This document shows positions 2,588-52,436 of a stretch of DNA of 64,000 nt, in pieces (within the stretch, counting starts at the first letter, position 1; each line of letters opens with the position of its first letter). Where the stretch lies: NCBI RefSeq assembly GCF_030013205.1, contig NZ_CP122648.1; one strand, 5' to 3'. The position numbers were made by a program, and so were the translations under genes. The stretch comes from Escherichia coli. Lineage in GTDB: Bacteria; Pseudomonadota; Gammaproteobacteria; Enterobacterales; Enterobacteriaceae. A model generated the notes under the pieces. The model did no database searches. It was not told the DNA's origin and worked only from the letters and a program-made list of their open reading frames with translations.

Positions 2588-3976
2588 TTAATCCATCTCT
2601 TCCGCTGAGGTAATACCAGGCAGAACGTTTTCCTGTCGGTAGCCACCAGGGAGGATAATATTTAATAAAATCGCAGTTAACCCGCCAGCACAAATAGGGT
2701 TTTCAACTAGTACATAAATAGAGGCTGGCAATATTTTAAAAATTTCGGGATCGTAGGAGACGCCAAGCCCTAAACCTAAAGAAGTGGCGACAATAAGTGT
2801 TTCTCGGCGCTTTAAACCGTTGGTGATGATGATGCGAATCCCAGCGATAGCAATCATGGAAAACATCAACGTCATTGCGCCTCCCAGAACTGCCGAGGGT
2901 ATGGTTGTGAAGAAACCGCCAATCATCGGAAACAAGCCGAGGATAACCAGCATTACCGCGATGGTTCGCCCGACATAACGTGAAGCGACGCCAGTCATCT
3001 GAATAACCCCATTATTTTGCGCAAACGTGGTTAAGGGTAATGAACCGACAGCGGAGGCGATAACAGAAACCAGACCATCTGCCAGCACGCCGCCTTTCAG
3101 TCGGGACTGATACTCTTCCCCCTGAATAGGGCGGCGAGAAACCATTGCCGTGGCGGTGATATCGCCGACAGCTTCCAGCACGCTAAGCAAATAAATCGTG
3201 CCAACCACCAGGAACTGATGGAAGCTGAAACTAAAGCCGTATTTGAACGGATGCGGGATGGTGATTAACGGCAAATTGCGCATACTGCTGAAATCCACCA
3301 TACCCAGGCATAACGACACGATATAACCGACGCAAAGGCCAATGGCGATCCCTCCCATGCGTAGCAACGGACTGCGACAGCAGTTAAAGCCGATCACCAC
3401 AATCAAAACCAATAAACCAACGCCGAGATGTTCGTAATTGCCGAACGTACCGCTGCTTTTGGCCGCAAATCCTCCACCAAAATCTTTAATCAGGCTTAAG
3501 CCGATCATCAGCACCACAATGCCGCTGACGGTAGGCGTAATAACCCGACGTAAATAGGGCAGGATAAAAGAAGAGCCGACAACCAGAAATGCGCCAACGA
3601 AGGAGACGCCGAGGAGCGACGACATGATTAACTCTTCGTGAAAACCGTCGCTTTTCATGCTGCTGCCCAGCGCAATCATGACCGTAACAAATGAAAAATT
3701 GACTGACTGAATTGAGAGAAGACCAGAACCGACGATGCCGTAGCGGTTTACTTGTAACCAGGTACCAATACCAGAGGCGATCATCGCCATAGAAACCAGA
3801 TAAGCGGTTGTTTCAGCGGAAAGCTGTAAGGCCGCACCCACGATTAACGCGGGGGTTACCATCGGAACGAAAATTGCCAACAGATGGGTAATGGCACCAA
3901 CGAGAGCCTGATGAAAGGGAGGGCGATCCTCCAGTTCAAATATAAGGTCAGAACCTGCATGGTTTATATCAGACAT
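2588..3976 (-). CDS. xanQ: xanthine permease (NCS2 family)
   Basis: ORF track 2588..4210; start taken at MSDINHAGSDLIFELEDRPPF (3976) with a GGAG RBS; polytopic membrane protein. Confidence 0.88.
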   Translation of the reverse strand: MSDINHAGSDLIFELEDRPPFHQALVGAITHLLAIFVPMVTPALIVGAALQLSAETTAYLVSMAMIASGIGTWLQVNRYGIVGSGLLSIQSVNFSFVTVMIALGSSMKSDGFHEELIMSSLLGVSFVGAFLVVGSSFILPYLRRVITPTVSGIVVLMIGLSLIKDFGGGFAAKSSGTFGNYEHLGVGLLVLIVVIGFNCCRSPLLRMGGIAIGLCVGYIVSLCLGMVDFSSMRNLPLITIPHPFKYGFSFSFHQFLVVGTIYLLSVLEAVGDITATAMVSRRPIQGEEYQSRLKGGVLADGLVSVIASAVGSLPLTTFAQNNGVIQMTGVASRYVGRTIAVMLVILGLFPMIGGFFTTIPSAVLGGAMTLMFSMIAIAGIRIIITNGLKRRETLIVATSLGLGLGVSYDPEIFKILPASIYVLVENPICAGGLTAILLNIILPGGYRQENVLPGITSAEEMD

Positions 3977-4140: not shown

Positions 4141-7011
4141 TTATATTTTTTCCAGCGCGGTGAGTATTTTCTCCGGTGTGAAATGCCATTCGCGTAACCA
4201 GATGCCGCATGCATCGTGAATTGCGGTAGCAATCGCCGGAGCTGCGCCATTTACACCGATTTCCGAGATCGATTTCGCCCCGAACGGGCCGACTTTATCG
4301 TCGCTCGGCACCAGCACAGCGCGGAAATCACGCGGAATGTCACCAATTTTCGGTGCGCCGTAACTGCGTAAATCACGCGTTAACGGGTGACCTTCGGCGT
4401 CATAAATGATTTCTTCGCTCATACTGTGGCCGATTGCACGAAGGGTGGCACCGTAGATTTGTCCCAACGCTAACTCTGGATTGACCGGTGTACCGCAATC
4501 CAGCAAGGCGTAGAATTTATCCAGGCGGATTTCACCCGTACGCGTGTTGACGGCGACTTCAGCAAAGTTTGCGCCATACGGGAAGGCGAAATCAGGCGTG
4601 ATATAACTGCCAGTTCCCACCAGTGAACCAAAGCCTGTGCCGGTTTCGCCTTTATGGGCAATATCCCCGAAACTAACTTCACCTTTCTTGCCGCGTACGA
4701 CGCCCGGCGTTGCTAGTTGGACATCTGCCACTGGCTCACCCAACATTTGCGCACCGTGGAACAGAATTTTCTCCCGCAGATTTTCTGCTGCCAAGCGCGC
4801 CGCGTTACCCGAGAAGCAAGTACCGGACGAGGCATATGCGCCTTTATCAAACAACGCATGATCGGTATCACCGGAGATAACATGCACGTCCTGCGGTGGG
4901 CAGTGCAGCACTTCTGCTGCCAGTTTCGTCACCACGGTATCCAGACCAGTACCAATATCCGCACCGCCAGAATGAACGATAAAGGTACCGTCTGATTCCA
5001 GTTTGATCATGCAGTTAGCCTGATCGATATCCGGGATCCCTGATTTCTGCATGATAATGGCGACGCCACGACCGATGTGCCAGTCACCGTTTTGTGGTTT
5101 TGGTGAAGACCATTGGATCATCTCGCGACCCTGACGCAGGATCTCTTCCAGTGCGCAGCTGGCGGCGGAAGGAACGGAGGTCGGCGCTTTACCTTCACCG
5201 ATTGCACCGAGAATTTTCAGCTCTTGCCCTTCGTGTACCCGGTTACGTTCGATAATTTCCAGTTGGTCGATCTGTAACTGTTCAGCCAGTTCCGCTAATG
5301 CCATGGTGATAGCGAAGTTACCTTTCGGTGCGCCATAACCCTGATAAGCACCATTTGGGCAAATGTTGCTGTAGTAGGTGGTGACCTGGAAATCGACGTT
5401 ATCGCACGGATATAACGGCAGCGACAGCGCCGGTCCGTTACACGGTACGGTGAGTGAGTGGTTGCCGTAAGGGCCAGTGTTGGCGCGGAAATCCATCTTC
5501 ACTGCCGTCAGGCGACCATCTTTTTTCGCTCCCAGTTTGACGGTGACTTTCGCGACGTGACGAGAGGTGTTAGCAATAAACTCTTCTTCACGGGTGTAGC
5601 GGAACAGTACCGGACGCCCGGTCACGCAGGTTGCCCAAGCGCACACTTCTTCCAGCAGGATGTCCTGTTTAGACCCAAAACCGCCGCCAACTCGCTCTTT
5701 AATGACATGAACTTTATGTTGTTTCATGCCCACGAGGCGCGCGACCTGGCGGCGTAAGTGCCATGGTACCTGGGTGGAGGCGTGGATAACCAGACGATCG
5801 CCGTCCATACGGGTAAAGCAGATATGAGTTTCAGTCGGGCACTGCTGCGCCTGCGTTGAGTTATAGGTTCGCTCAATGATCACATCGGCATCGGCAAAGC
5901 CTTTGTCCATATCGCCGATATGACCATGAATACTGGCGGCGATATTTTTACGGGGGCGAGAACCGATCGGGAAGTTGATGATCATATGCTCGCCGCGCTG
6001 GGCTGCATGGCTGTTATCGTCTTCCAGAGTATCTGGCGCACCAGCAACATACACCACCGGTTCATCGTGCACGACAGGTGCATCTTCCGCCATTGCTTCG
6101 TCAATCGACATTACCGGCTTAAGCACTTCATATTCAACGTCGATGAGCTTCAGTGCTTCGAGCGCAATTTCTTCACTTTCAGCGACGACCGCAGCAACGC
6201 GATCGCCGACGTGACGCATTTTCTTGCCGAACATACGGCGGTCAAGCGGTGACGGTTCCGGTGCGCTCTGACCGCCCGGGGTATAGTAGATATCCGGGCA
6301 ATTCAGGTGAGTAATAACGTGAACAACGCCCGGTAAGGCTTCAGCTTTGCTGACATCCAGATGAGTAATCAGTGCGTGAGCGTGTGGGCTACGTAACATT
6401 TTAATGACGCAGGCGTCAGCCGTTACGCGGTCTTCAACATAGCAGGGTTTCGCCTGCACCATTTTCGCGGCATCAGTTTTAGGATAATGCTTACCAATGA
6501 CTTCAAGGTCATCGCGGAAAGTCGGAGCGATATCAATGGTGGCCTGCGGATTATTTTTACGTGCAACCGCCAGTTCAATGACCTGATAGTATTGTTGCCA
6601 GCCTGCATCGCGGCTGAACAAACCAGAAAGCGCGTCGTCGATCTCTTCGCGGGTCGGTGCGGCAATGCGATCGAGAAGATCGGTGATAATCAGAGCCGCA
6701 GCTGGATCGTTATAACCAGACTGCACCACGCCAACATCAACCATTGCCTGTTGAACCAGACTTAACTCGTTCCATTTGCCCAGAGACTCTGCGGTACGAA
6801 TATCTGCCTTCTCTAACTGTGCGGCGATAAGCAAGGACGCGTTAACGATATTACCGTTACAGATAATTGCGTCAGAACCGGCAAACCCGAATCCATCATC
6901 GCTGTTGCGTACAGAGTGCATTCCCATGTTAAACAACAGCTTTTGCACGTTTTCGCCTGGATTAACGGTTAGCTCCTGAGGCGCGCCATTTAAAGTAAAG
7001 TGGATGATCAT
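4141..7011 (-). CDS. xdhD: molybdopterin-containing hydroxylase, large subunit (xanthine dehydrogenase family) with Fe-S/selenium-associated domain
   Basis: 956-aa ORF; aldehyde oxidase/xanthine dehydrogenase-type molybdopterin-binding regions; start ATG overlaps the ygfM stop (ATGA at 7008-7011). Confidence 0.9.
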   Translation of the reverse strand: MIIHFTLNGAPQELTVNPGENVQKLLFNMGMHSVRNSDDGFGFAGSDAIICNGNIVNASLLIAAQLEKADIRTAESLGKWNELSLVQQAMVDVGVVQSGYNDPAAALIITDLLDRIAAPTREEIDDALSGLFSRDAGWQQYYQVIELAVARKNNPQATIDIAPTFRDDLEVIGKHYPKTDAAKMVQAKPCYVEDRVTADACVIKMLRSPHAHALITHLDVSKAEALPGVVHVITHLNCPDIYYTPGGQSAPEPSPLDRRMFGKKMRHVGDRVAAVVAESEEIALEALKLIDVEYEVLKPVMSIDEAMAEDAPVVHDEPVVYVAGAPDTLEDDNSHAAQRGEHMIINFPIGSRPRKNIAASIHGHIGDMDKGFADADVIIERTYNSTQAQQCPTETHICFTRMDGDRLVIHASTQVPWHLRRQVARLVGMKQHKVHVIKERVGGGFGSKQDILLEEVCAWATCVTGRPVLFRYTREEEFIANTSRHVAKVTVKLGAKKDGRLTAVKMDFRANTGPYGNHSLTVPCNGPALSLPLYPCDNVDFQVTTYYSNICPNGAYQGYGAPKGNFAITMALAELAEQLQIDQLEIIERNRVHEGQELKILGAIGEGKAPTSVPSAASCALEEILRQGREMIQWSSPKPQNGDWHIGRGVAIIMQKSGIPDIDQANCMIKLESDGTFIVHSGGADIGTGLDTVVTKLAAEVLHCPPQDVHVISGDTDHALFDKGAYASSGTCFSGNAARLAAENLREKILFHGAQMLGEPVADVQLATPGVVRGKKGEVSFGDIAHKGETGTGFGSLVGTGSYITPDFAFPYGANFAEVAVNTRTGEIRLDKFYALLDCGTPVNPELALGQIYGATLRAIGHSMSEEIIYDAEGHPLTRDLRSYGAPKIGDIPRDFRAVLVPSDDKVGPFGAKSISEIGVNGAAPAIATAIHDACGIWLREWHFTPEKILTALEKI

Positions 7012-12267: not shown

Positions 12268-12588
12268 AACCCTCTCCTTAGCTTATACAGATATCATTGA
12301 GTGACCGGTGTTGAGAAATCCGGTGGTTTAGGGGGATAGAGCAACAATCGCACCACTCTTGCCAGGTTTGGCGGGAAATATAAAAAAATGTGAGGCGGCT
12401 CGAAACTTAAGGGCTTTTTGTGAATGAACTCACAGGTGCCAAATGAGAATTAAAATCACTCCTGAAAATTATTATTGCCAGCCCATTTATCACTTTTTCT
12501 CTTTTCTCAAAATCAGTGATTCCTTATCATTATGATAAAGAGTGCCGGAAGGATTAAATATTTGAACGCAATCGTTTAACTACGTTTT

Positions 12589-13269: not shown

Positions 13270-14040
13270 GTGAAAAGTATAGTTGACCCATCGGCATTAT
13301 TCATTGATTTAGGCGCGCAGAAACGTCCCACTGTGATTTCTGTTGTTGGGGCTGGGGGGAAAACCAGCTTGCTTTTTTGGCTGGCAGAACTGCTCCAGGC
13401 TAGCGGCAGGCGTGTGTTAATCACTACGACGACACATATGTTTATGCCAACGTCTCACTGGCCCGTGGTTTTCTGTCGTGATCCCGCCATGCTTCCTCAT
13501 GCGTCTCTTACATCCCCCATTTCATTTTGTTTTCACAGCTGGAAAGCGAACCAGGGAAAGGTGCAGGGATTTACGCCAGAAGCGATTGATGCACTGGTGC
13601 AACGACCAGAGTGTGACGTAATTCTCATTGAGGCAGATGGCTCGCGTGGAATGCCGTTAAAAGCGCCTGATGAGCACGAACCTTGCATACCTAAAAGCAG
13701 TTGCTGCGTGATTGCTGTGATGGGAGGACATATTTTGGGTGCAAAAGTGAGCACAGAAAATGTCCATCGCTGGTCGCAGTTTGCTGATATTACTGGGTTA
13801 ACACCTGATGCACCCTTGCAACTGAGCGATCTCGTTGCGCTGGTTCGCCACCCTCAGGGCGCGTTTAAAAACGTACCGCAAGGTTGTCGGCGAGTCTGGT
13901 TCATTAACCGTTTTTCTCAATGTGAGAATGCGATTGCGCAAAGCGAGCTCCTTCAACCGCTGCAACAACACAACGTAGAGGCAATCTGGCTGGGCGATAT
14001 ACAAGAACATCCTGCAATCGCGCGCAGATTTGTGAATTAG
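13270..14040 (+). CDS. yqeC: selenium-dependent molybdenum hydroxylase accessory protein YqeC
   Basis: 256-aa ORF with a P-loop-like VVGAGGKTS motif; conserved neighbour of yqeB. Confidence 0.85.
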   Translation: MKSIVDPSALFIDLGAQKRPTVISVVGAGGKTSLLFWLAELLQASGRRVLITTTTHMFMPTSHWPVVFCRDPAMLPHASLTSPISFCFHSWKANQGKVQGFTPEAIDALVQRPECDVILIEADGSRGMPLKAPDEHEPCIPKSSCCVIAVMGGHILGAKVSTENVHRWSQFADITGLTPDAPLQLSDLVALVRHPQGAFKNVPQGCRRVWFINRFSQCENAIAQSELLQPLQQHNVEAIWLGDIQEHPAIARRFVN

Positions 14041-20694: not shown

Positions 20695-21885
20695 TTATTT
20701 CACGCGTTCTTGCGCTTCTTTCAGCAGTTGCTCGAGCAGTGCACCTGGTTTGGCGTATTTACGGGACAGGATCATCGCGGCGATGATATAAGGCTTCCAG
20801 CTGGCTTCTTTGTAGGTTGCGATACGGTATTTTTCGAATACGCCTTCAGTCACTTCACCTTCTTTACAGGATACGCCGCTGATATCAGCTGGCAGGCAGT
20901 GCATGTACAGGGCTTCGCCATCACGGGTCAGTTCCATCATCTCTTCAGTACAATGCCAGTCTTTGTGTTGCGCGTTCTGTGCCAGACACTGTTTTTCCAG
21001 TGCTTTTAAGCCTTCGTGGTCGTTCGCACGCAGCAATTCAGTACGCTCTTCCATCACTTTGTAAGGTGCCCATGACTTCGGATAAACGATGTCTGCGTCT
21101 TTGAAGGCTTCTTCCATGCTGGTGACCTGACGGAAGCTACCACCGGATGCTTTAGCATTGTTTTTCGCCACTTCAACCACATCCGGGATCAGGTCGTAGC
21201 CTTCCGGATGGGCCAGGGTGACATCCATACCGAAGCGAGTCATCAGACCGATGATGCCTTGTGGTACAGAGAGCGGTTTGCCATAGCTTGGGGAGTAGGC
21301 CCAGGTCATGGCGATTTTTTTACCTTTCAGGTTTTCCAGTGAACCAAAGTGTTCACGTAACCATGCCAGGTCAGCCATTGACTGAGTCGGGTGGTCAATA
21401 TCGCATTGCAGGTTCACTAAAGCCGGACGTTGCGGCAGTACACCATGCTTGTAACCGTCATCAAGTGCAGCGCCAACTTCACGCATATAGGCGTTGCCTG
21501 CGCCCAGATACATATCGTCACGAATACCGATGGCATCGGCGCAGAAGGAGATCATATTGGCGGTTTCACGCACGGTTTCGCCGTGAGCGATTTGTGATTT
21601 GCCTTCGTCGAGATCTTGCTGTGCAAGGCCGAGCAGGTTAAGCGCGGAAGCATAAGAGAAACGGGTACGGGTGGAGTTGTCGCGGAATACGGAAATACCT
21701 AATCCACTATTAAAGACTTTGGTTGAGATGTTTTCAGCACGCAGTGCTTTTAATGCTGCGGCAACGTCCAGTACTTGTTTCAGTTCATCTGGCGTCTGTT
21801 CCCACGTTAACAAAAAATCTTTCTCGTGAAGGTGAGAGGTCAGCGAATTGATATCCTTAATCAGCTCATTAACAGTTTTCATCAT
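20695..21885 (-). CDS. ygeW: carbamoyltransferase (ATCase/OTCase-like)
   Basis: 396-aa ORF with the carbamoyl-phosphate-binding STRTR motif. Confidence 0.88.
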   Translation of the reverse strand: MMKTVNELIKDINSLTSHLHEKDFLLTWEQTPDELKQVLDVAAALKALRAENISTKVFNSGLGISVFRDNSTRTRFSYASALNLLGLAQQDLDEGKSQIAHGETVRETANMISFCADAIGIRDDMYLGAGNAYMREVGAALDDGYKHGVLPQRPALVNLQCDIDHPTQSMADLAWLREHFGSLENLKGKKIAMTWAYSPSYGKPLSVPQGIIGLMTRFGMDVTLAHPEGYDLIPDVVEVAKNNAKASGGSFRQVTSMEEAFKDADIVYPKSWAPYKVMEERTELLRANDHEGLKALEKQCLAQNAQHKDWHCTEEMMELTRDGEALYMHCLPADISGVSCKEGEVTEGVFEKYRIATYKEASWKPYIIAAMILSRKYAKPGALLEQLLKEAQERVK

Positions 21886-22360
21886 AAAGTCCCGGTAGTG
21901 GAATGACAGGCAAAGTGGTTTATTTCACTGTGACTTGCCAAAGTGATTGGTGTTTTCACAGCTATGCCTGGGACTAACAATAAGTGTGCCAGAATTATCC
22001 TCGGGGCTGCAAAAGACTAATTTGACGGATAATGTGTGGGGTTGATCACAAATTGATGCCAGCTTCCGGTTGTTTGTAAAATACGAAAACGTTTGGCTTT
22101 TTTTATCGCGTTATTTATTTGCTGCTAAGTATCAGAAATAAGATAAAGGGACAGGCGATCTCTCTTCAGTTTGATAAACTCACCGCCGTAATTCTCATAT
22201 TGATATAGAAATGTGATATCTCTTCCATAATTTCATTAGAAAGTGATAAAAATCTTATGTTTTTATCAAAGCCAATTTCGCCTGAGTTAATATCATCATG
22301 ATCTATGAACCATCAACGTCTTCAATGATCGACTTTTAAGTAAGTCTGGAAGGTAAAGCT

Positions 22361-24139
22361 ATGGAGCTTGCTACTACGCAGTCAGTATTGATGCAAATTC
22401 AACCGACAATTCAGCGTTTTGCCAGAATGCTTGCCAGCGTTTTGCAGCTTGAGGTTGAGATCGTTGATGAAAACTTGTGTCGCGTCGCCGGAACGGGCGC
22501 GTATGGGAAGTTTCTTGGTCGCCAGTTGAGCGGCAACTCACGCCTGCTCCGCCACGTCCTGGAAACGAAAACTGAAAAAGTTGTGACACAGTCTCGCTTC
22601 GATCCCCTTTGTGAAGGTTGCGATAGTAAAGAAAATTGCCGCGAAAAAGCATTTCTGGGTACGCCTGTCATTTTACAGGATCGTTGTGTTGGGGTGATAA
22701 GTTTGATTGCCGTTACCCACGAGCAACAAGAGCATATCAGTGATAATTTACGCGAATTTTCTGATTATGTTCGCCATATATCCACCATTTTTGTTTCGAA
22801 ACTTCTGGAGGATCAGGGGCCAGGAGATAACATCAGTAAAATATTCGCGACCATGATCGATAATATGGATCAGGGCGTATTAGTTGTTGATGATGAAAGT
22901 CGGGTTCAGTTTGTTAATCAGACTGCCTTAAAAACACTTGGTGTTGTACAAAATAATATTATTGGGAAACCTATCCGTTTCAGACCATTAACATTTGAGA
23001 GTAATTTTACCCATGGACATATGCAGCATATTGTTTCGTGGGACGATAAAAGTGAATTAATCATTGGTCAATTGCATAACATTCAGGGCCGACAATTATT
23101 TTTAATGGCGTTTCACCAATCGCATACCAGTTTTTCTGTAGCAAATGCACCTGATGAACCGCATATTGAACAATTGGTTGGCGAGTGCCGTGTTATGCGG
23201 CAATTAAAACGACTCATTAGCCGTATTGCACCCAGCCCATCCAGCGTTATGGTGGTTGGTGAAAGCGGCACGGGTAAAGAAGTTGTCGCCCGTGCAATCC
23301 ATAAGTTGAGCGGAAGACGGAATAAACCCTTTATTGCTATCAACTGTGCCGCGATTCCGGAGCAGCTTCTGGAGAGCGAACTGTTCGGTTATGTTAAAGG
23401 CGCATTTACTGGCGCTTCTGCCAACGGTAAAACAGGGTTGATTCAGGCGGCGAATACGGGCACGCTGTTTCTCGATGAAATAGGTGATATGCCATTAATG
23501 TTGCAGGCTAAATTACTGCGCGCTATTGAGGCGCGTGAAATTCTGCCGATTGGTGCCAGTAGCCCAATACAAGTCGACATTCGCATCATTTCTGCAACTA
23601 ACCAGAATTTGGCACAGTTCATTGCCGAAGGTAAATTCCGCGAAGATCTCTTCTACCGACTTAATGTTATCCCGATAACTCTGCCACCGCTGCGTGAACG
23701 TCAGGAAGATATTGAATTACTGGTGCATTACTTTTTACATCTGCATATCCGTCGGCTGGGATCGGTTTATCCTGGCATTGCTCCCGATGTCGTCGAAATA
23801 TTGCGTAAGCATCGTTGGCCCGGAAACCTGCGCGAGTTAAGCAATTTGATGGAATATCTGGTTAACGTTGTTCCTTCAGGTGAAGTTATCGACAGCACGC
23901 TATTGCCGCCAAATCTGCTGAATAATGGCACAACGGAGCAAAGTGATGTAACAGAGGTCACTGAGGCACACCTGTCACTCGATGATGCGGGCGGCACGGC
24001 GCTGGAGGAGATGGAAAAGCAAATGATCCGCGAGGCGCTTTCACGTCATAACAGCAAGAAGCAAGTTGCTGATGAACTGGGCATCGGCATTGCTACGCTC
24101 TATCGCAAGATTAAGAAATATGAGTTGTTAAACACATAA
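22361..24139 (+). CDS. ygeV: sigma54-dependent transcriptional activator (enhancer-binding protein)
   Basis: 592-aa ORF; AAA+ Walker A GESGTGKE, the sigma54-contact GAFTGA motif, and a C-terminal Fis-type HTH. Confidence 0.9.
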   Translation: MELATTQSVLMQIQPTIQRFARMLASVLQLEVEIVDENLCRVAGTGAYGKFLGRQLSGNSRLLRHVLETKTEKVVTQSRFDPLCEGCDSKENCREKAFLGTPVILQDRCVGVISLIAVTHEQQEHISDNLREFSDYVRHISTIFVSKLLEDQGPGDNISKIFATMIDNMDQGVLVVDDESRVQFVNQTALKTLGVVQNNIIGKPIRFRPLTFESNFTHGHMQHIVSWDDKSELIIGQLHNIQGRQLFLMAFHQSHTSFSVANAPDEPHIEQLVGECRVMRQLKRLISRIAPSPSSVMVVGESGTGKEVVARAIHKLSGRRNKPFIAINCAAIPEQLLESELFGYVKGAFTGASANGKTGLIQAANTGTLFLDEIGDMPLMLQAKLLRAIEAREILPIGASSPIQVDIRIISATNQNLAQFIAEGKFREDLFYRLNVIPITLPPLRERQEDIELLVHYFLHLHIRRLGSVYPGIAPDVVEILRKHRWPGNLRELSNLMEYLVNVVPSGEVIDSTLLPPNLLNNGTTEQSDVTEVTEAHLSLDDAGGTALEEMEKQMIREALSRHNSKKQVADELGIGIATLYRKIKKYELLNT

Positions 24140-27796: not shown

Positions 27797-28247
27797 GCAT
27801 GATTCACCTGTAGCGGTTGCTTCCCGCGCTTCCATAGAAATCCCCTCGATTTGAACATTTGGTTCTTATGGCAAAGATTTAGTCTAAGCAGGCAAGATTT
27901 ACGCCAGAAACGACGATAAGCGTTAAGGGAGGAAGGAAGTGTGATGATGTTAAAAAAACACAGATATGATACGAAACAGGACCCTGAATAGGGGCAGTGA
28001 TACGTATCAATATGAGTGGCGATAAAATCAATGTGATAAATTGGGATTATTACGCATCAGGATGGGAAATAGGGTAAATGAGTCAGGAAATTCGATACAT
28101 CTACAGTGAATATTTTGCTGATGATACTTCCCTTTGCCAAATGAAATTAACCTCTTTCTCTATTACCGCGTTTTTCCAGAAGCAAGAGATTGGGTATCAA
28201 GAGGCTGGCTGCTATGATATGGCGTCTTGTTTTTTAAGCGAGGAAAG

Positions 28248-34406: not shown

Positions 34407-36208
34407 AAAACGCCCCGAATTTAAAATATCAGCCGAAGGATAAATTCACTGAGGTAATCATTTTTGCCGGGACGGATGCTTACGCCCATGCTCAACACTG
34501 GATTGAAAGCGAAGGACGAAAACACGGCGATAACGTACCACCTGTTTACCTGGGGCCGAAGCAACTGGCAGACCTGGCGAACATCCGCATTATCGACGAA
34601 GGGCGCCGCTTTGCGCGTGTCTATATCGCAGGGGAGATCGAACCAATTCAGATCAACGCTATCGCCGAAAAGCTGGCACTGGCTGGCGTACAGGAGGCGA
34701 AATTATACAAAGGCATCACCGACCGGGAGCCGGAGAACTGGCGCGATTACCTGCAACGGATCCGCGAACAGGCAGAGCGCGGGGAAGTTTCAGCGATGAA
34801 ATTAGTCACAAAAAATAGTGACCTACCCAGGCCAGCACTAAATCAGATGGGAGCCAGCCAGAGAGGGGAAGTATTGCTTGAATATTATGGAAGGGCACTG
34901 GCTATAAATGACGATTCTGATGTAGTTCACCATTACAACGGAATTGTCTGGGAGCCTGTATCTGATAAGGAACTCCAGCGGTCTATGGCGAAGATTTTTA
35001 TTGATGCTGGAATCAGTTATTCGCAAAACGCCATTAAATTTGCCGTAGACACAATGAAATTGAGCCTGCCTGTTATGGGCGGGGCAGACAGGAATCTTAT
35101 TGGATTCAGTAACGGGGTATTTGATACCCGGACAGGAAATTTTCGGGAGCATAACAAAAATGACTGGTTGTTAAATGCCAGTGAATTACCGTTCAGCCCA
35201 CCAGCAGAGGGGGAAACGCTGGCAACACATGCGCCGAATTTCTGGAAGTGGCTGCGTCGTTCGGTGGCAAATAACGATCGTAAAGCGGATCGCGTACTGG
35301 CGGCATTATTCATGGTACTGGCGAACCGGTACGACTGGCAGTTATTCCTTGAGGTAACGGGGCCGGGCGGAAGCGGTAAAAGTGTGATGGCGGAGATTTG
35401 TACCATGCTGGCGGGTAAGGCCAATACAGTATCGGCGAGCATGAAGGCGCTGGAAGACGCGAGGGAACGAGCGTTAGTGGTGGGATATTCTCTGATTATC
35501 ATGCCTGACATGACCCGCTACGCAGGTGATGGTGCTGGGATTAAGGCCATTACAGGCGGTGACAAGGTGGCAATCGACCCGAAACATAAAGCCCCCTACT
35601 CCACACGTATTCCGGCGGTAGTGCTGGCAGTAAACAATAACGCCATGTCATTCAGTGATCGCAGTGGAGGGATCTCGCGTCGTAGGGTGATATTTAATTT
35701 CTCTGAGGTCGTACCGGAGAACGAACGCGATCCCATGCTGGTGGAAAAAATAGAAGGCGAACTGGCGGTAGTGATTCGCCATTTGCTTACACGATTTGCC
35801 GACCAGGACGAAGCGAAAAGACTACTTTATGAGCAGCAAAAATCAGAAGAAGCACTGTTAATAAAGCGTGAAGGTGATTCGCTGGTGGACTTCTGCGGTT
35901 ATCTGATGTCGTTGGTTAAATGTGAGGGGATGATAGTAGGTAATGCAGAAATAGTGCCATTTAGCCCGAGGCGATATCTGTATCATGCTTATTTGGCTTA
36001 TATGTCTGCGCATGGTCTGGGAAAACCGGTATCACTGACACGCTTTGGTACAGATATGCCAGGGGCAATGGCTGAGTACGGAAAGGAGTACAAGCGGGCT
36101 AAATGCACTAAAGGTCCAGATAAAGGGCGAACGATCACAAATGTTCTGTTAGATAAAGATGCTGATGGATGGTTACCAGCAGCGGCAGGCATTAACGACA
36201 GAACATGA
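34403..36208 (+). CDS. phage/satellite-type DNA primase-helicase (P4 alpha / D5-like)
   Basis: 601-aa ORF; Walker A GPGGSGKS; followed directly by an iteron array. Confidence 0.8.
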   Translation: MKNAPNLKYQPKDKFTEVIIFAGTDAYAHAQHWIESEGRKHGDNVPPVYLGPKQLADLANIRIIDEGRRFARVYIAGEIEPIQINAIAEKLALAGVQEAKLYKGITDREPENWRDYLQRIREQAERGEVSAMKLVTKNSDLPRPALNQMGASQRGEVLLEYYGRALAINDDSDVVHHYNGIVWEPVSDKELQRSMAKIFIDAGISYSQNAIKFAVDTMKLSLPVMGGADRNLIGFSNGVFDTRTGNFREHNKNDWLLNASELPFSPPAEGETLATHAPNFWKWLRRSVANNDRKADRVLAALFMVLANRYDWQLFLEVTGPGGSGKSVMAEICTMLAGKANTVSASMKALEDARERALVVGYSLIIMPDMTRYAGDGAGIKAITGGDKVAIDPKHKAPYSTRIPAVVLAVNNNAMSFSDRSGGISRRRVIFNFSEVVPENERDPMLVEKIEGELAVVIRHLLTRFADQDEAKRLLYEQQKSEEALLIKREGDSLVDFCGYLMSLVKCEGMIVGNAEIVPFSPRRYLYHAYLAYMSAHGLGKPVSLTRFGTDMPGAMAEYGKEYKRAKCTKGPDKGRTITNVLLDKDADGWLPAAAGINDRT

Positions 36209-51407: not shown

Positions 51408-52436
51408 ATGATTATCGGAAATGAAGTGGTTGATCTTGCTCCACTGTTCGAATTAAACGACTCACGCAATTACCTACTGTCTACTCTGGATTTTACTGAT
51501 CCTGTGCCTGTAGAAAGTCACAAAGTGGCTGTTTCCCAGCTTATCGAGAGCAATGAATCTCTGTTCAACCATCCTACAAGCCGTTTTAGCTCTGAGCATA
51601 ACGTTACTAAGCGTGAGAACGGGGAAGAATGGCTGATTGAAATCCCTTACTTCCTGCGTGAAGACCTGATCAAACCGCAGGACGTGCAAGGCAAACGCAA
51701 AGCCGGAAGCTCTATTGAAGAAACACTGCCGGATCTGTATGCGGAATATATCGCTACACACAATGTTGCATTCCAGCGCACTAAAGAAAGCATCCTCGCG
51801 GCTTCTCTGTTCTCTGGCAAGACACATACCCCGAAAACTGACGATGTTCTGATCGACTACAGCACTCTGTTCGGTGTGTCTCCAATGACTGCAACCGTTG
51901 ACGCATCCAGCACCAACACAATGACCGTATTCAAGCAATTTGATCAGATGCATACGGATATGATTGCTAAGGCACAAAGCCAGGCTGCAACCATTGAGCG
52001 TGTTGTTGTGTTCTGTAAACCTGCGGCATTCAACGCTATTCGTTACAGCGTTGGCATGGTTAATGCGTTCCAGTATGCAAGCCCTGTAGACGATGCAAAC
52101 GTGGTGTTTAATGTGCGTTCTCTGCTGCCTGGTGTAACTACTTTCACCATTCCAGGAACTAACATTGACCTGATCAAAGTGACTGATCCGCTGCTGCTGG
52201 CACATATGACCGCTGACGCTGTAGCTATTCCTAAACTTGCTAAGGGGGCAGGTGTTTACCAAGCTATTTTTGGTGCGCCTTCCAGTTCATTCGATCTGCT
52301 GTCTCAAGGCGCTAAAGAGTATTACAGCTATGCTTTCGAATCGAATCGCGGCGACGCAGTGCACGTAGTGACCGAGAATAGCTCGCTTGTGGTTAACCAC
52401 GGTGTTGGCTTCTCTGTGCAGATCACAGTAGCGTAA
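51408..52436 (+). CDS. putative phage major capsid protein, lambda E-like
   Basis: 342 aa (lambda gpE is 341 aa); C-terminus ...GVGFSVQITVA resembles the gpE C-terminus ...DEFVSVQLA; N-terminal DLAPLFEL region. Confidence 0.5.
   Translation: MIIGNEVVDLAPLFELNDSRNYLLSTLDFTDPVPVESHKVAVSQLIESNESLFNHPTSRFSSEHNVTKRENGEEWLIEIPYFLREDLIKPQDVQGKRKAGSSIEETLPDLYAEYIATHNVAFQRTKESILAASLFSGKTHTPKTDDVLIDYSTLFGVSPMTATVDASSTNTMTVFKQFDQMHTDMIAKAQSQAATIERVVVFCKPAAFNAIRYSVGMVNAFQYASPVDDANVVFNVRSLLPGVTTFTIPGTNIDLIKVTDPLLLAHMTADAVAIPKLAKGAGVYQAIFGAPSSSFDLLSQGAKEYYSYAFESNRGDAVHVVTENSSLVVNHGVGFSVQITVA

What the first reader, a model, noticed from the sequence alone, without database searches (positions are those of the whole stretch)
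21968..21993. Candidate sigma54 -24/-12 promoter upstream of ygeW, next to the divergent activator gene ygeV
On the minus strand, CTGGCACACTTATTGTT (complement of 21977-21993) gives TGGCAC-n5-TTGT about 90 bp upstream of the ygeW start. The -12 element is GT rather than the consensus GC, so this is weak. The AT-rich 475-bp intergenic region to ygeV would hold the enhancer sites.
Basis: partly seen in the sequence, partly recalled or inferred. Interest (0 to 1): 0.3.

Follow-up and report, generated by a model that had tools for sequence, protein, structure and literature searches.

The report
Known sigma-54 promoter of ygeW
The motif is a real, already published sigma-54 binding site in front of the E. 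coli uric-acid-degradation gene ygeW. It is conserved almost base for base in twelve enterobacterial genera, so the finding is correct but not new.

Summary
The motif CTGGCACACTTATTGTT is present on the minus strand at 21992..21976, one base off the stated coordinates. It lies 91 nt upstream of the ygeW ATG, in the 475-bp, 37% GC spacer to the divergent activator gene ygeV.

It is already known. Bonocora et al. 2015 list this exact 17-mer as sigma-54 ChIP-seq site OS30 upstream of ygeW. Shimada et al. 2021 found purified sigma-54 holoenzyme bound in the same spacer.

New here:
- The core is the most conserved 17 nt of the spacer in 12 genera.
- A palindrome, TATCA-N3-TGAKA, lies 208-211 bp upstream in every genus. 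It recurs upstream of the xdhA and ygfK sigma-54 promoters and beside YgeV-like activators in Firmicutes. It is the likely YgeV enhancer.
- A CRP-like site sits at a fixed -78.

Not shown: the transcription start, and rpoN or ygeV dependence of ygeW mRNA.

Verdict: observation confirmed, interpretation supported, already known, low interest. The candidate enhancer and the CRP geometry are the only modestly new parts.

The parts
21976..21992 (-). Sigma-54 core promoter CTGGCACACTTATTGTT. GG (-25/-24) is at 21990-21989 and GT (-13/-12) at 21978-21977.
   Evidence: Sequence. Identical to Bonocora ChIP-seq site OS30. Leave-one-out matrix rank 6 of 127,968. 15 of 17 columns invariant in 12 genera for window 21991-21975, the best 17-nt window of the spacer. 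No SNP in six divergent E. coli, although the flanks are polymorphic.
21965..21965 (-). Predicted transcription start, giving a 5' UTR of about 80 nt. Inferred, not mapped.
   Evidence: Bonocora convention of 19 nt downstream of the motif centre (21984). Their table gives a distance of 80 to ygeW.
22035..22050 (-). CRP-like site TGTGATCAACCCCACA, 9 of 10 matches to TGTGA-N6-TCACA, centred at -77.5.
   Evidence: Matches 8-10 of 10 at -77.5 or -78.5 in all 12 genera. PMC12507026 refers to a native Crp site in the ygeV-ygeW spacer and to glucose repression of uricolysis.
22192..22206 (-). Candidate YgeV enhancer (UAS). Main palindrome ATATCAATATGAGAA (T[AC]TCA-N3-TGA[TG]A), centre 22199, 208 bp upstream of the T of TGGCAC.
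   Evidence: One zero-mismatch copy at -208 to -211 in all 12 genera, with a distance sd of 1.0 bp. The same motif lies upstream of the xdhA and ygfK sigma-54 promoters and of Firmicute ygeX/ygeY promoters next to YgeV-like activators. Binding by YgeV is inferred.
22163..22177 (-). Weaker flanking copy or half-site, TTATCAAACTGAAGA. The TTTATCA block is conserved.
   Evidence: 2 mismatches to TTATCANNNTGATAA.
22208..22238 (-). Conserved block next to the palindrome, consensus AAATATG-N10-ATCACATTT (E. coli AAATTATG...). Part of the distal enhancer module; function unknown.
   Evidence: Alignment of 12 genera.
22290..22304 (-). Distal degenerate copy AGATCATGATGATAT, containing the conserved ATGATAyTA, about -306 from TGGCAC.
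21890..21907 (-). Conserved end of the 5' UTR, GTCATTCCACTACCGGGA, including the Shine-Dalgarno-like (A/G)GGA.
   Evidence: No Rfam match. Fold z-score -0.96.
20695..21885 (-). ygeW, a knotted carbamoyltransferase. First gene of the downstream ygeW-ygeX-ygeY-hyuA-arcC (yqeA) run on the same strand.
22361..24139 (+). ygeV, a sigma-54 enhancer-binding protein. Unassigned N-terminus, PAS 162-205, AAA+ 272-439 with GESGTGK, GAFTGA (347-352) and DEIG, and HTH_8 548-587.

Best explanation
This is the sigma-54 (-24/-12) promoter of the ygeW operon. The operon encodes the ureido-cleaving and diaminopropionate end of the anaerobic uric-acid degradation pathway.

Shown by others: RNA polymerase-sigma-54 holoenzyme binds the core CTGGCAC-N5-TTGT as a closed complex.

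Inferred: YgeV is encoded divergently and carries the GAFTGA sigma-54 contact loop. It binds a conserved palindrome, TATCA-N3-TGAKA, centred about 234 bp upstream of the predicted start. It reaches the polymerase by DNA looping and uses ATP hydrolysis to open the promoter. A CRP-like site fixed at -78 lies between enhancer and promoter. It probably supplies the bend, or catabolite control, that IHF supplies at other sigma-54 promoters. No IHF consensus is present.

The T at -12 in place of the consensus C is a fixed feature of this promoter in Enterobacterales, not decay.
For: Sigma-54 binding:
- ChIP-seq peak OS30 with this exact 17-mer, oriented to ygeW, distance 80.
- Purified holoenzyme gSELEX peak in the ygeV/ygeW spacer at 53-55% of the top peak, with a 30% cut-off.

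Sequence quality:
- Leave-one-out matrix rank 6 of 127,968. Ranks 1 and 5 are the published xdhA and ygfK sites.

Conservation:
- YTGGCAC-NN-TTATTGTTA is present in all 12 genera, 79-106 nt from the ATG, and is the top or second-best hit of each locus.
- It is the most conserved 17-nt window of a spacer in which only 14.9% of columns are invariant.
- E. coli SNPs flank it but never hit it.

Activator:
- YgeV has a complete AAA+ sigma-54 domain with GAFTGA and an HTH_8.

Enhancer:
- The palindrome lies at -208 to -211 in every genus, with a distance sd of 1.0 bp against 6-7 bp for the distances to either start codon.
- The 12 spacers hold 19 copies, against 0.94 +/- 0.96 in simulations.
- The motif is shared with the xdhA and ygfK upstream regions and with Firmicute loci, where it occurs as tandem copies 18-21 bp apart.

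Regulon context:
- ygeW, ygeX and ygeY co-vary with xdhABC, ygfK and ygfT in the 'YgeV iModulon', and ygfT expression falls in a ygeV mutant.
- ygfK and ygfT are induced by uric acid, and glucose suppresses uricolysis.
- Clostridiales have a sigma-54 'DioR' regulon with the same genes.
Against: - No transcription start, rpoN dependence or ygeV dependence of ygeW mRNA was found in the papers I could read. Bonocora et al. state that binding does not prove a promoter and that most activators were inactive in their conditions.
- In vivo occupancy is low: FAT 3, against 201 for the nearly identical hypA core.
- YgeV binding to the palindrome is inferred from comparative genomics only. The ygfK copy also resembles part of a Fur box (from memory).
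- An enhancer at -234 is farther than the usual -80 to -150.
- The CRP-like site could instead serve the divergent ygeV promoter.
Confidence: 0.85

Rival explanations
1. Sigma-54 holoenzyme binds here but the site is not the productive ygeW promoter. It would be a poised or 'repressive' binding site, and ygeW would be transcribed from a CRP-dependent sigma-70 promoter.
For: Shimada et al. propose that holoenzyme-alone sites act as 'repressive promoters'. The ChIP signal is low, FAT 3. A conserved CRP-like site lies upstream, and uricolysis is glucose-repressed. No published start site was found.
Against: The sigma-70 consensus scan finds no plausible promoter oriented to ygeW in the spacer; the only minus-strand hit overlaps the ATG. 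The site keeps a fixed distance to a conserved enhancer-like palindrome and a divergent activator gene in 12 genera. Firmicute homologues of the operon carry consensus sigma-54 promoters.
Confidence: 0.1
2. The promoter is real but is activated by a different enhancer-binding protein than YgeV. The TATCA-N3-TGAKA palindrome would then bind another factor such as Fur.
For: YgeV-DNA binding has never been shown in the papers found. The ygfK palindrome TTATCATAATGATAA shares about 10 nt with the Fur box (from memory).
Against: The palindrome travels with YgeV-like activator genes from Firmicutes to Enterobacterales. It lies upstream of sigma-54 promoters there, as tandem copies at enhancer-like distances. 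ygeV is always the divergent neighbour. ygfT expression falls in a ygeV mutant.
Confidence: 0.05
3. The motif is a chance match to the consensus with no function.
For: TGGCAC-N5-TTGY is expected 0.35 times per 64 kb, and 30 of 100 shuffles have at least one match. The -12 position is non-consensus.
Against: Published in vivo and in vitro sigma-54 binding. Near-perfect conservation across 12 genera in a spacer that is otherwise 85% variable.
Confidence: 0.01

Closest known systems
Bonocora et al. 2015 sigma-54 ChIP-seq site OS30 (ygeW), PMC4591121
   Same: It is the same object: the identical 17-mer, strand and target gene, with a predicted start 80 nt from ygeW.
   Different: Nothing differs in the site itself. 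The paper reports binding only and carries no EcoCyc 'confirmed' or 'predicted' tag. It reports no conservation analysis, enhancer or CRP geometry for this site.
pspA and pspG promoters (PspF-dependent, experimentally confirmed)
   Same: Both have TTGT instead of TTGC at -12: TTGGCACGCAAATTGTA and TTGGCATGATTCTTGTA. They are among 4 of 135 bound sites with GT.
   Different: The activator differs: PspF lacks a sensor domain and is controlled by PspA. Their ChIP occupancy is higher (FAT 21 and 15, against 3).
hypA promoter (FhlA-dependent)
   Same: The core differs at only two positions: CTGGCACAATTATTGCT against CTGGCACACTTATTGTT.
   Different: hypA has the consensus C at -12 and the strongest ChIP signal in the genome (FAT 201, against 3).
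xdhA and ygfK sigma-54 promoters in the same window
   Same: Same 'YgeV iModulon'. Sigma-54 ChIP sites. Both have TATCA-N3-TGAKA palindromes upstream. ygfK also has a perfect CRP core between palindrome and promoter.
   Different: Both have consensus GC at -12. Their palindromes are closer, about 100-180 bp from the -24 element, and xdhA has two copies 21 bp apart.
'DioR' sigma-54 regulon of Clostridiales (Nie et al. 2019, PMC6615313)
   Same: An enhancer-binding protein plus sigma-54 promoters control dpaL(ygeX), ygeW-ygfK-ssnA-ygeY and yqeB/yqeC. My Firmicute loci show consensus promoters and the same palindrome.
   Different: The Firmicute promoters have consensus TTGCT. Their palindromes are tandem and closer, -100 to -165. 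The activators are only 34-39% identical to YgeV.
prpBCDE promoter (PrpR, sigma-54, CRP-dependent). Recalled from memory (Lee, Newman and Keasling 2005), not checked here.
   Same: A divergent activator gene, a sigma-54 promoter for a catabolic operon, and catabolite repression through CRP.
   Different: CRP action at ygeW is untested, and the enhancer motif and signal differ.

Membership tests
Sigma-54 (-24/-12) promoter | GG and G(C) elements with exact 10-bp spacing, scoring within the range of experimentally bound sites | tested here: met
   TGGCAC-N5-TTGT with canonical spacing. The leave-one-out matrix score of 13.4 bits exceeds 42 of 135 bound sites and two EcoCyc-confirmed promoters, hydN and patA.
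Sigma-54 (-24/-12) promoter | Consensus C at -12 | tested here: not met
   T at 21977. This is a consensus preference, not an absolute requirement: 11 of 135 bound sites lack GC and 4 have GT, including the confirmed pspA and pspG promoters. The T is invariant in 12 genera.
Sigma-54 (-24/-12) promoter | Bound by sigma-54 holoenzyme | not testable with these tools
   Published: ChIP-seq OS30, FAT 3, and gSELEX with purified holoenzyme at 53-55%.
Sigma-54 (-24/-12) promoter | Intergenic, oriented towards a downstream gene and within reach of it | tested here: met
   91 nt from the last motif base to the ygeW ATG, and 79-106 nt in the orthologues.
Sigma-54 (-24/-12) promoter | Transcription starts about 12 nt downstream of the -12 element and depends on rpoN | not testable with these tools
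   No start-site or rpoN-dependence data for ygeW in the papers read.
Enhancer-dependent activation by a bEBP (YgeV) | A cognate AAA+ activator with the GAFTGA loop, Walker A and B motifs and a DNA-binding domain | tested here: met
   Pfam Sigma54_activat E=8e-71 and HTH_8 E=1e-13. GESGTGK at 300, GAFTGA at 347, DEIG at 372. It is the divergent neighbour of ygeW in all 12 genera.
Enhancer-dependent activation by a bEBP (YgeV) | Upstream activator sequence bound by the activator | tested here: inconclusive
   A conserved palindrome lies at a fixed 208-211 bp and is shared with co-regulated promoters and Firmicute homologues. No binding experiment is available.
CRP (cAMP receptor protein) site | TGTGA-N6-TCACA dyad | tested here: met
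   9 of 10 in the window and 8-10 of 10 in 12 genera, at -77.5 or -78.5. A Crp site in this spacer is mentioned in PMC12507026 without coordinates.
CRP (cAMP receptor protein) site | CRP-cAMP binding and an effect on ygeW or ygeV transcription | not testable with these tools
   Only indirect: uricolysis is glucose-repressed, and the repression is bypassed when the spacer is replaced by other promoters.

The most novel reading that the evidence does not exclude
The ygeW control region is a fixed three-part machine. It comprises a YgeV enhancer palindrome (TTATCA-N3-TGATAA family) held 209 +/- 1 bp from the -24 element, a CRP site at -78 that replaces IHF as the looping and catabolite-control element, and a selected non-consensus T at -12 that tunes closed-complex occupancy.

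The same palindrome would define the DNA code of the YgeV/DioR activator family, which controls anaerobic uric-acid degradation from Firmicutes to Enterobacterales. None of this is in the papers I could search.
Probability: 0.4. Interest if true: 0.45.

Novelty: already known. Interest (0 to 1): 0.22.

Why it matters
The operon behind this promoter encodes part of the gut-bacterial pathway that removes uric acid, which is relevant to gout and to engineered probiotics. One group has already replaced this spacer with other promoters to escape glucose repression.

Three points would make native regulation of the pathway directly testable. The promoter is sigma-54 dependent. YgeV probably acts from a defined palindrome. 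A conserved CRP-like site sits between them.

Tried and rejected
- **Second TGGCAT motif.** CTGGCATCAATTTGTGA at 22061-22045 (minus strand) looked like a second promoter. Its matrix score is -2.8 because the spacing is off by one, and it overlaps the CRP-like site. Rejected.
- **Sigma-54 promoter for ygeV.** The best antisense score in the spacer is 0.98. None present.
- **IHF site between enhancer and promoter.** No WATCAANNNNTTR match in 11 of 12 spacers; the single match, in Atlantibacter, lies upstream of the enhancer.
- **RNA element in the 5' UTR.** No relevant Rfam match; the only hits are a snoRNA model and Ocean-VII, both below threshold. The fold z-score is -0.96.
- **Sigma-70 promoters.** Two weak hits, no more than in shuffles, and none usable for ygeW.
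- **Generic repeat search of the spacer.** It gave only short, low-identity pairs and missed the palindrome.
- **First protein search with E. coli YgeV.** It returned only near-identical E. coli proteins. Searching with the 69%-identical Enterobacter orthologue gave the diverse genera.
- **PurR box at 22083-22098.** Two mismatches to a consensus recalled from memory, and chance expectation is about one per window. Kept only as a side note.
- **Schaefer et al. 2015.** No mention of yge, xdh or ygf genes.
- **Reitzer and Schneider 2001.** Not held in the library.

Full report
**Observation**

The window is E. coli, in reverse orientation relative to K-12. It is 100% identical over the region to strain CFSAN018748. 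On the minus strand, ygeW runs 21885..20695. On the plus strand, ygeV runs 22361..24139. The spacer between them is 475 bp with 37.3% GC, against 46.7% for the window.

The motif CTGGCACACTTATTGTT is present on the minus strand at 21992..21976. GG is at 21990-21989 and GT at 21978-21977, with the canonical spacing. The last motif base is 91 nt from the ATG.

As a bare pattern the match is not significant. TGGCAC-N5-TTGY occurs once, with 0.35 expected per window. The consensus with one mismatch occurs three times, with 2.8 expected.

**It is already published**

Bonocora et al. 2015 (PMC4591121) list this exact 17-mer in their Table 1 as intergenic-sense sigma-54 ChIP-seq site OS30. The entry gives peak 3004190, FAT 3, target ygeW, predicted start 80 nt from the gene and PSSM 9.84. 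It carries no EcoCyc "confirmed" or "predicted" flag.

Shimada et al. 2021 (PMC8743547) found a gSELEX peak of purified sigma-54 holoenzyme in the ygeV/ygeW spacer. Its height was 53% of the top peak, or 55% with NtrC present, against a 30% cut-off.

Lamoureux et al. 2023 (PMC10602906) describe a "YgeV iModulon" that contains ygeW, ygeX, ygeY, xdhABC, ygfK and ygfT. They cite sigma-54 promoters upstream of xdhABC and ygeWXY, and note that ygfT expression falls in a ygeV mutant.

Bonocora et al. stress that binding is not proof of a promoter. They also state that most activators were inactive in their conditions. I found no start-site mapping and no rpoN or ygeV dependence data for ygeW itself.

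**Quality of the site**

I built a log-odds matrix from the other 134 published sites, leaving OS30 out. With it the site ranks 6th of 127,968 positions in the window. Rank 1 is the published xdhA site (27907..27891) and rank 5 the published ygfK site (12356..12340). The ygeW site scores above 42 of the 135 bound sites, and above the confirmed hydN and patA promoters.

The -12 dinucleotide is GC in 124 of the 135 sites, GA in 6, GT in 4 and TC in 1. The GT group includes pspA and pspG, both experimentally confirmed.

The ygeW core differs from hypA, the strongest site in the genome (FAT 201), at only two positions: spacer position 9 and the C-to-T at -12.

**Conservation**

I searched with the 69%-identical YgeV orthologue of Enterobacter sp. 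Bisph1. I then fetched the encoding contigs. This gave ygeV-ygeW spacers from 11 further genera:
- Enterobacter
- Cedecea
- Pluralibacter
- Serratia
- Kluyvera
- Intestinirhabdus
- Raoultella
- Trabulsiella
- Atlantibacter
- Citrobacter
- Pseudocitrobacter

All keep the divergent arrangement. All carry YTGGCAC-NN-TTATTGTTA 79-106 nt upstream of the ygeW ATG. In each locus this is the best or second-best matrix hit.

In the 12-genus alignment only 14.9% of E. coli spacer positions are invariant. The window 21991-21975 has 15 of 17 invariant positions, the highest of any 17-nt window. Variation is confined to position 1 and to spacer positions 8-9.

The T at -12 is invariant, so it is a maintained feature and not erosion.

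Within E. coli the neighbourhood is polymorphic. Only 16 of 4,861 genomes are at least 99% identical over 75 bp around the motif. In six divergent strains, including K-12 and BL21, the SNPs flank GGATAATTCTGGCACACTTATTGTTAGTC but never fall within it.

**The activator**

YgeV has the full enhancer-binding-protein set:
- Sigma54_activat domain, E = 8e-71
- Walker A GESGTGK at 300
- GAFTGA at 347-352
- Walker B DEIG at 372
- AAA lid
- C-terminal HTH_8
- A PAS segment at 162-205
- An unassigned N-terminus

It has no receiver domain.

**Candidate enhancer**

The alignment shows a conserved distal module at about 22238-22166. Its core is a palindrome, T[AC]TCA-N3-TGA[TG]A. In the window it reads ATATCAATATGAGAA at 22206..22192, centred on 22199.

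A zero-mismatch copy lies 208-211 bp upstream of the T of TGGCAC in every one of the 12 genera. That distance has an sd of 1.0 bp. The distances to the ygeV and ygeW start codons have sds of 6.3 and 7.2 bp. The constraint is therefore on enhancer-to-promoter geometry.

The 12 spacers hold 19 copies with one mismatch or fewer. First-order Markov simulations give 0.94 +/- 0.96. The rest of the window has 0.14 copies per kb.

The same motif lies upstream of other sigma-54 promoters in the cluster:
- E. coli xdhA has two copies 21 bp apart, at 28039-28004.
- Trabulsiella xdhA also has two copies 21 bp apart, and Atlantibacter xdhA has one.
- E. coli ygfK has a perfect TTATCATAATGATAA at 12524-12538.

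The motif also appears in Firmicute loci where YgeV-like activators (34-39% identity) adjoin ygeX, ygeW, ygeY or xdhA. There, consensus sigma-54 promoters are preceded by tandem copies:
- Sedimentibacter: TTATCAATATGATAA at -163 and TTATCATATTGATAA at -144.
- A Clostridium MAG: three copies at -141, -122 and -101.
- Another Clostridium MAG: two copies at -121 and -103.

This matches the sigma-54 "DioR" regulon reconstructed for Clostridiales.

I infer that this palindrome is the YgeV/DioR enhancer. No binding experiment exists in the literature I could search. The ygfK copy also overlaps about 10 nt of the Fur box consensus, which I recall from memory.

**CRP-like site**

TGTGATCAACCCCACA at 22050..22035 matches TGTGA-N6-TCACA at 9 of 10 positions. 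All 12 genera have an 8-10 of 10 match centred at -77.5 or -78.5 from the predicted start.

A perfect core, TGTGAATGAACTCACA at 12419-12434, sits about -97.5 from the predicted ygfK start. That is 20 bp further out than at ygeW.

PMC12507026 mentions a native Crp site in the ygeV-ygeW spacer. It also reports glucose repression of uricolysis, which is bypassed when the spacer is replaced by gapA and nirB promoters. Liu et al. also noted suppression by glucose, and uric-acid induction of ygfK and ygfT.

No IHF consensus is present between enhancer and promoter. I infer that CRP provides bending or catabolite control. It could instead act on the divergent ygeV promoter.

**Mechanism, with steps marked**

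1. Sigma-54 holoenzyme binds the core as a closed complex. Shown by others.
2. YgeV binds the palindrome module. Inferred.
3. Looping over about 210 bp, possibly assisted by CRP, lets the GAFTGA loop contact sigma-54, and ATP hydrolysis opens the promoter. This follows from established knowledge of enhancer-binding proteins.
4. Transcription starts near 21965 and reads ygeW, ygeX, ygeY, hyuA and arcC (yqeA). Inferred.
5. The signal is probably uric acid or a pathway intermediate under anaerobic, glucose-poor conditions. This is indirect.

The conserved -12 T may explain the low in vivo occupancy (FAT 3) relative to hypA. However, in vitro binding is strong at 53%. The contrast is unexplained.

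**Verdict**

The site is already known.

The added value here is threefold: the cross-genus conservation, which removes the "weak" caveat; a candidate YgeV enhancer motif; and the fixed CRP-like site.

Noticed in passing
window 22083-22098 (-): AGCCAAACGTTTTCGT resembles a PurR operator, with 2 mismatches to the consensus ACGCAAACGTTTTCGT recalled from memory. The block AAGCCAAACGTTTTCGT is identical in Trabulsiella and Citrobacter amalonaticus and near-identical in Atlantibacter. These are genera in which xdhCBA follows ygeV. The statistics are weak, with about 1 match expected per window at 3 mismatches or fewer. ygeV does not appear in the PurR ChIP-chip paper (0 occurrences).
   Followed up: partly
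window 12419-12434: A perfect CRP core, TGTGAATGAACTCACA, lies between the ygfK palindrome (12524-12538) and the ygfK sigma-54 core (12356-12340). It is about -97.5 from the predicted start, 20 bp further out than the ygeW CRP-like site.
   Followed up: partly
window 28004-28039 (-): Two palindrome copies 21 bp apart (TTATCACATTGATTT and CACTCATATTGATAC) lie upstream of the xdhA sigma-54 core at 27907-27891. The same 21-bp pair occurs in Trabulsiella. A conserved ACATTTTTTAAG..CATCACA block lies between them and the promoter.
   Followed up: partly
window 35944-35960 (-), 52051-52067 (+), 4561-4577 (-): Three further high-scoring sigma-54 matrix hits of 15.5-15.8 bits, all above the ygeW site. 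One is antisense inside the ETT2 escV-family pseudogene, one antisense inside ygeG, and one sense inside xdhD. None was checked for binding or conservation.
   Followed up: no
window 13671-13687 (+): TGAGCACGAACCTTGCA inside yqeC is Bonocora's intragenic site IS34, proposed as a promoter for yqeB. It ranks 19th with my matrix.
   Followed up: no
window 22361-24139 (+), YgeV protein: YgeV has no receiver domain by Pfam. It has an unassigned N-terminus with a Cys-rich stretch CEGCDSKENC, then PAS, AAA+ and HTH_8. The mBio 2022 paper that renames it IsrR nevertheless calls it an orphan response regulator.
   Followed up: partly
window 21976-21992 versus the hypA core (K-12): The ygeW core is 15 of 17 identical to the hypA core. 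Its ChIP occupancy is 3 against 201 in vivo, yet gSELEX with pure holoenzyme gives 53% of the top peak. The gap between in vivo and in vitro binding is unexplained.
   Followed up: no
window 21890-21907 (-): The last ~18 nt of the 5' UTR, GTCATTCCACTACCGGGA, are conserved across genera beyond the Shine-Dalgarno sequence. There is no Rfam match and no significant fold.
   Followed up: partly
L004 (Citrobacter werkmanii) 2605-3000: A paralogous system. A 38%-identical YgeV-like activator lies divergent from a dpaL-like gene. It has its own sigma-54 core, CTGGTAAGCATTTTGCT, and palindrome-like copies at -125 and -104.
   Followed up: no
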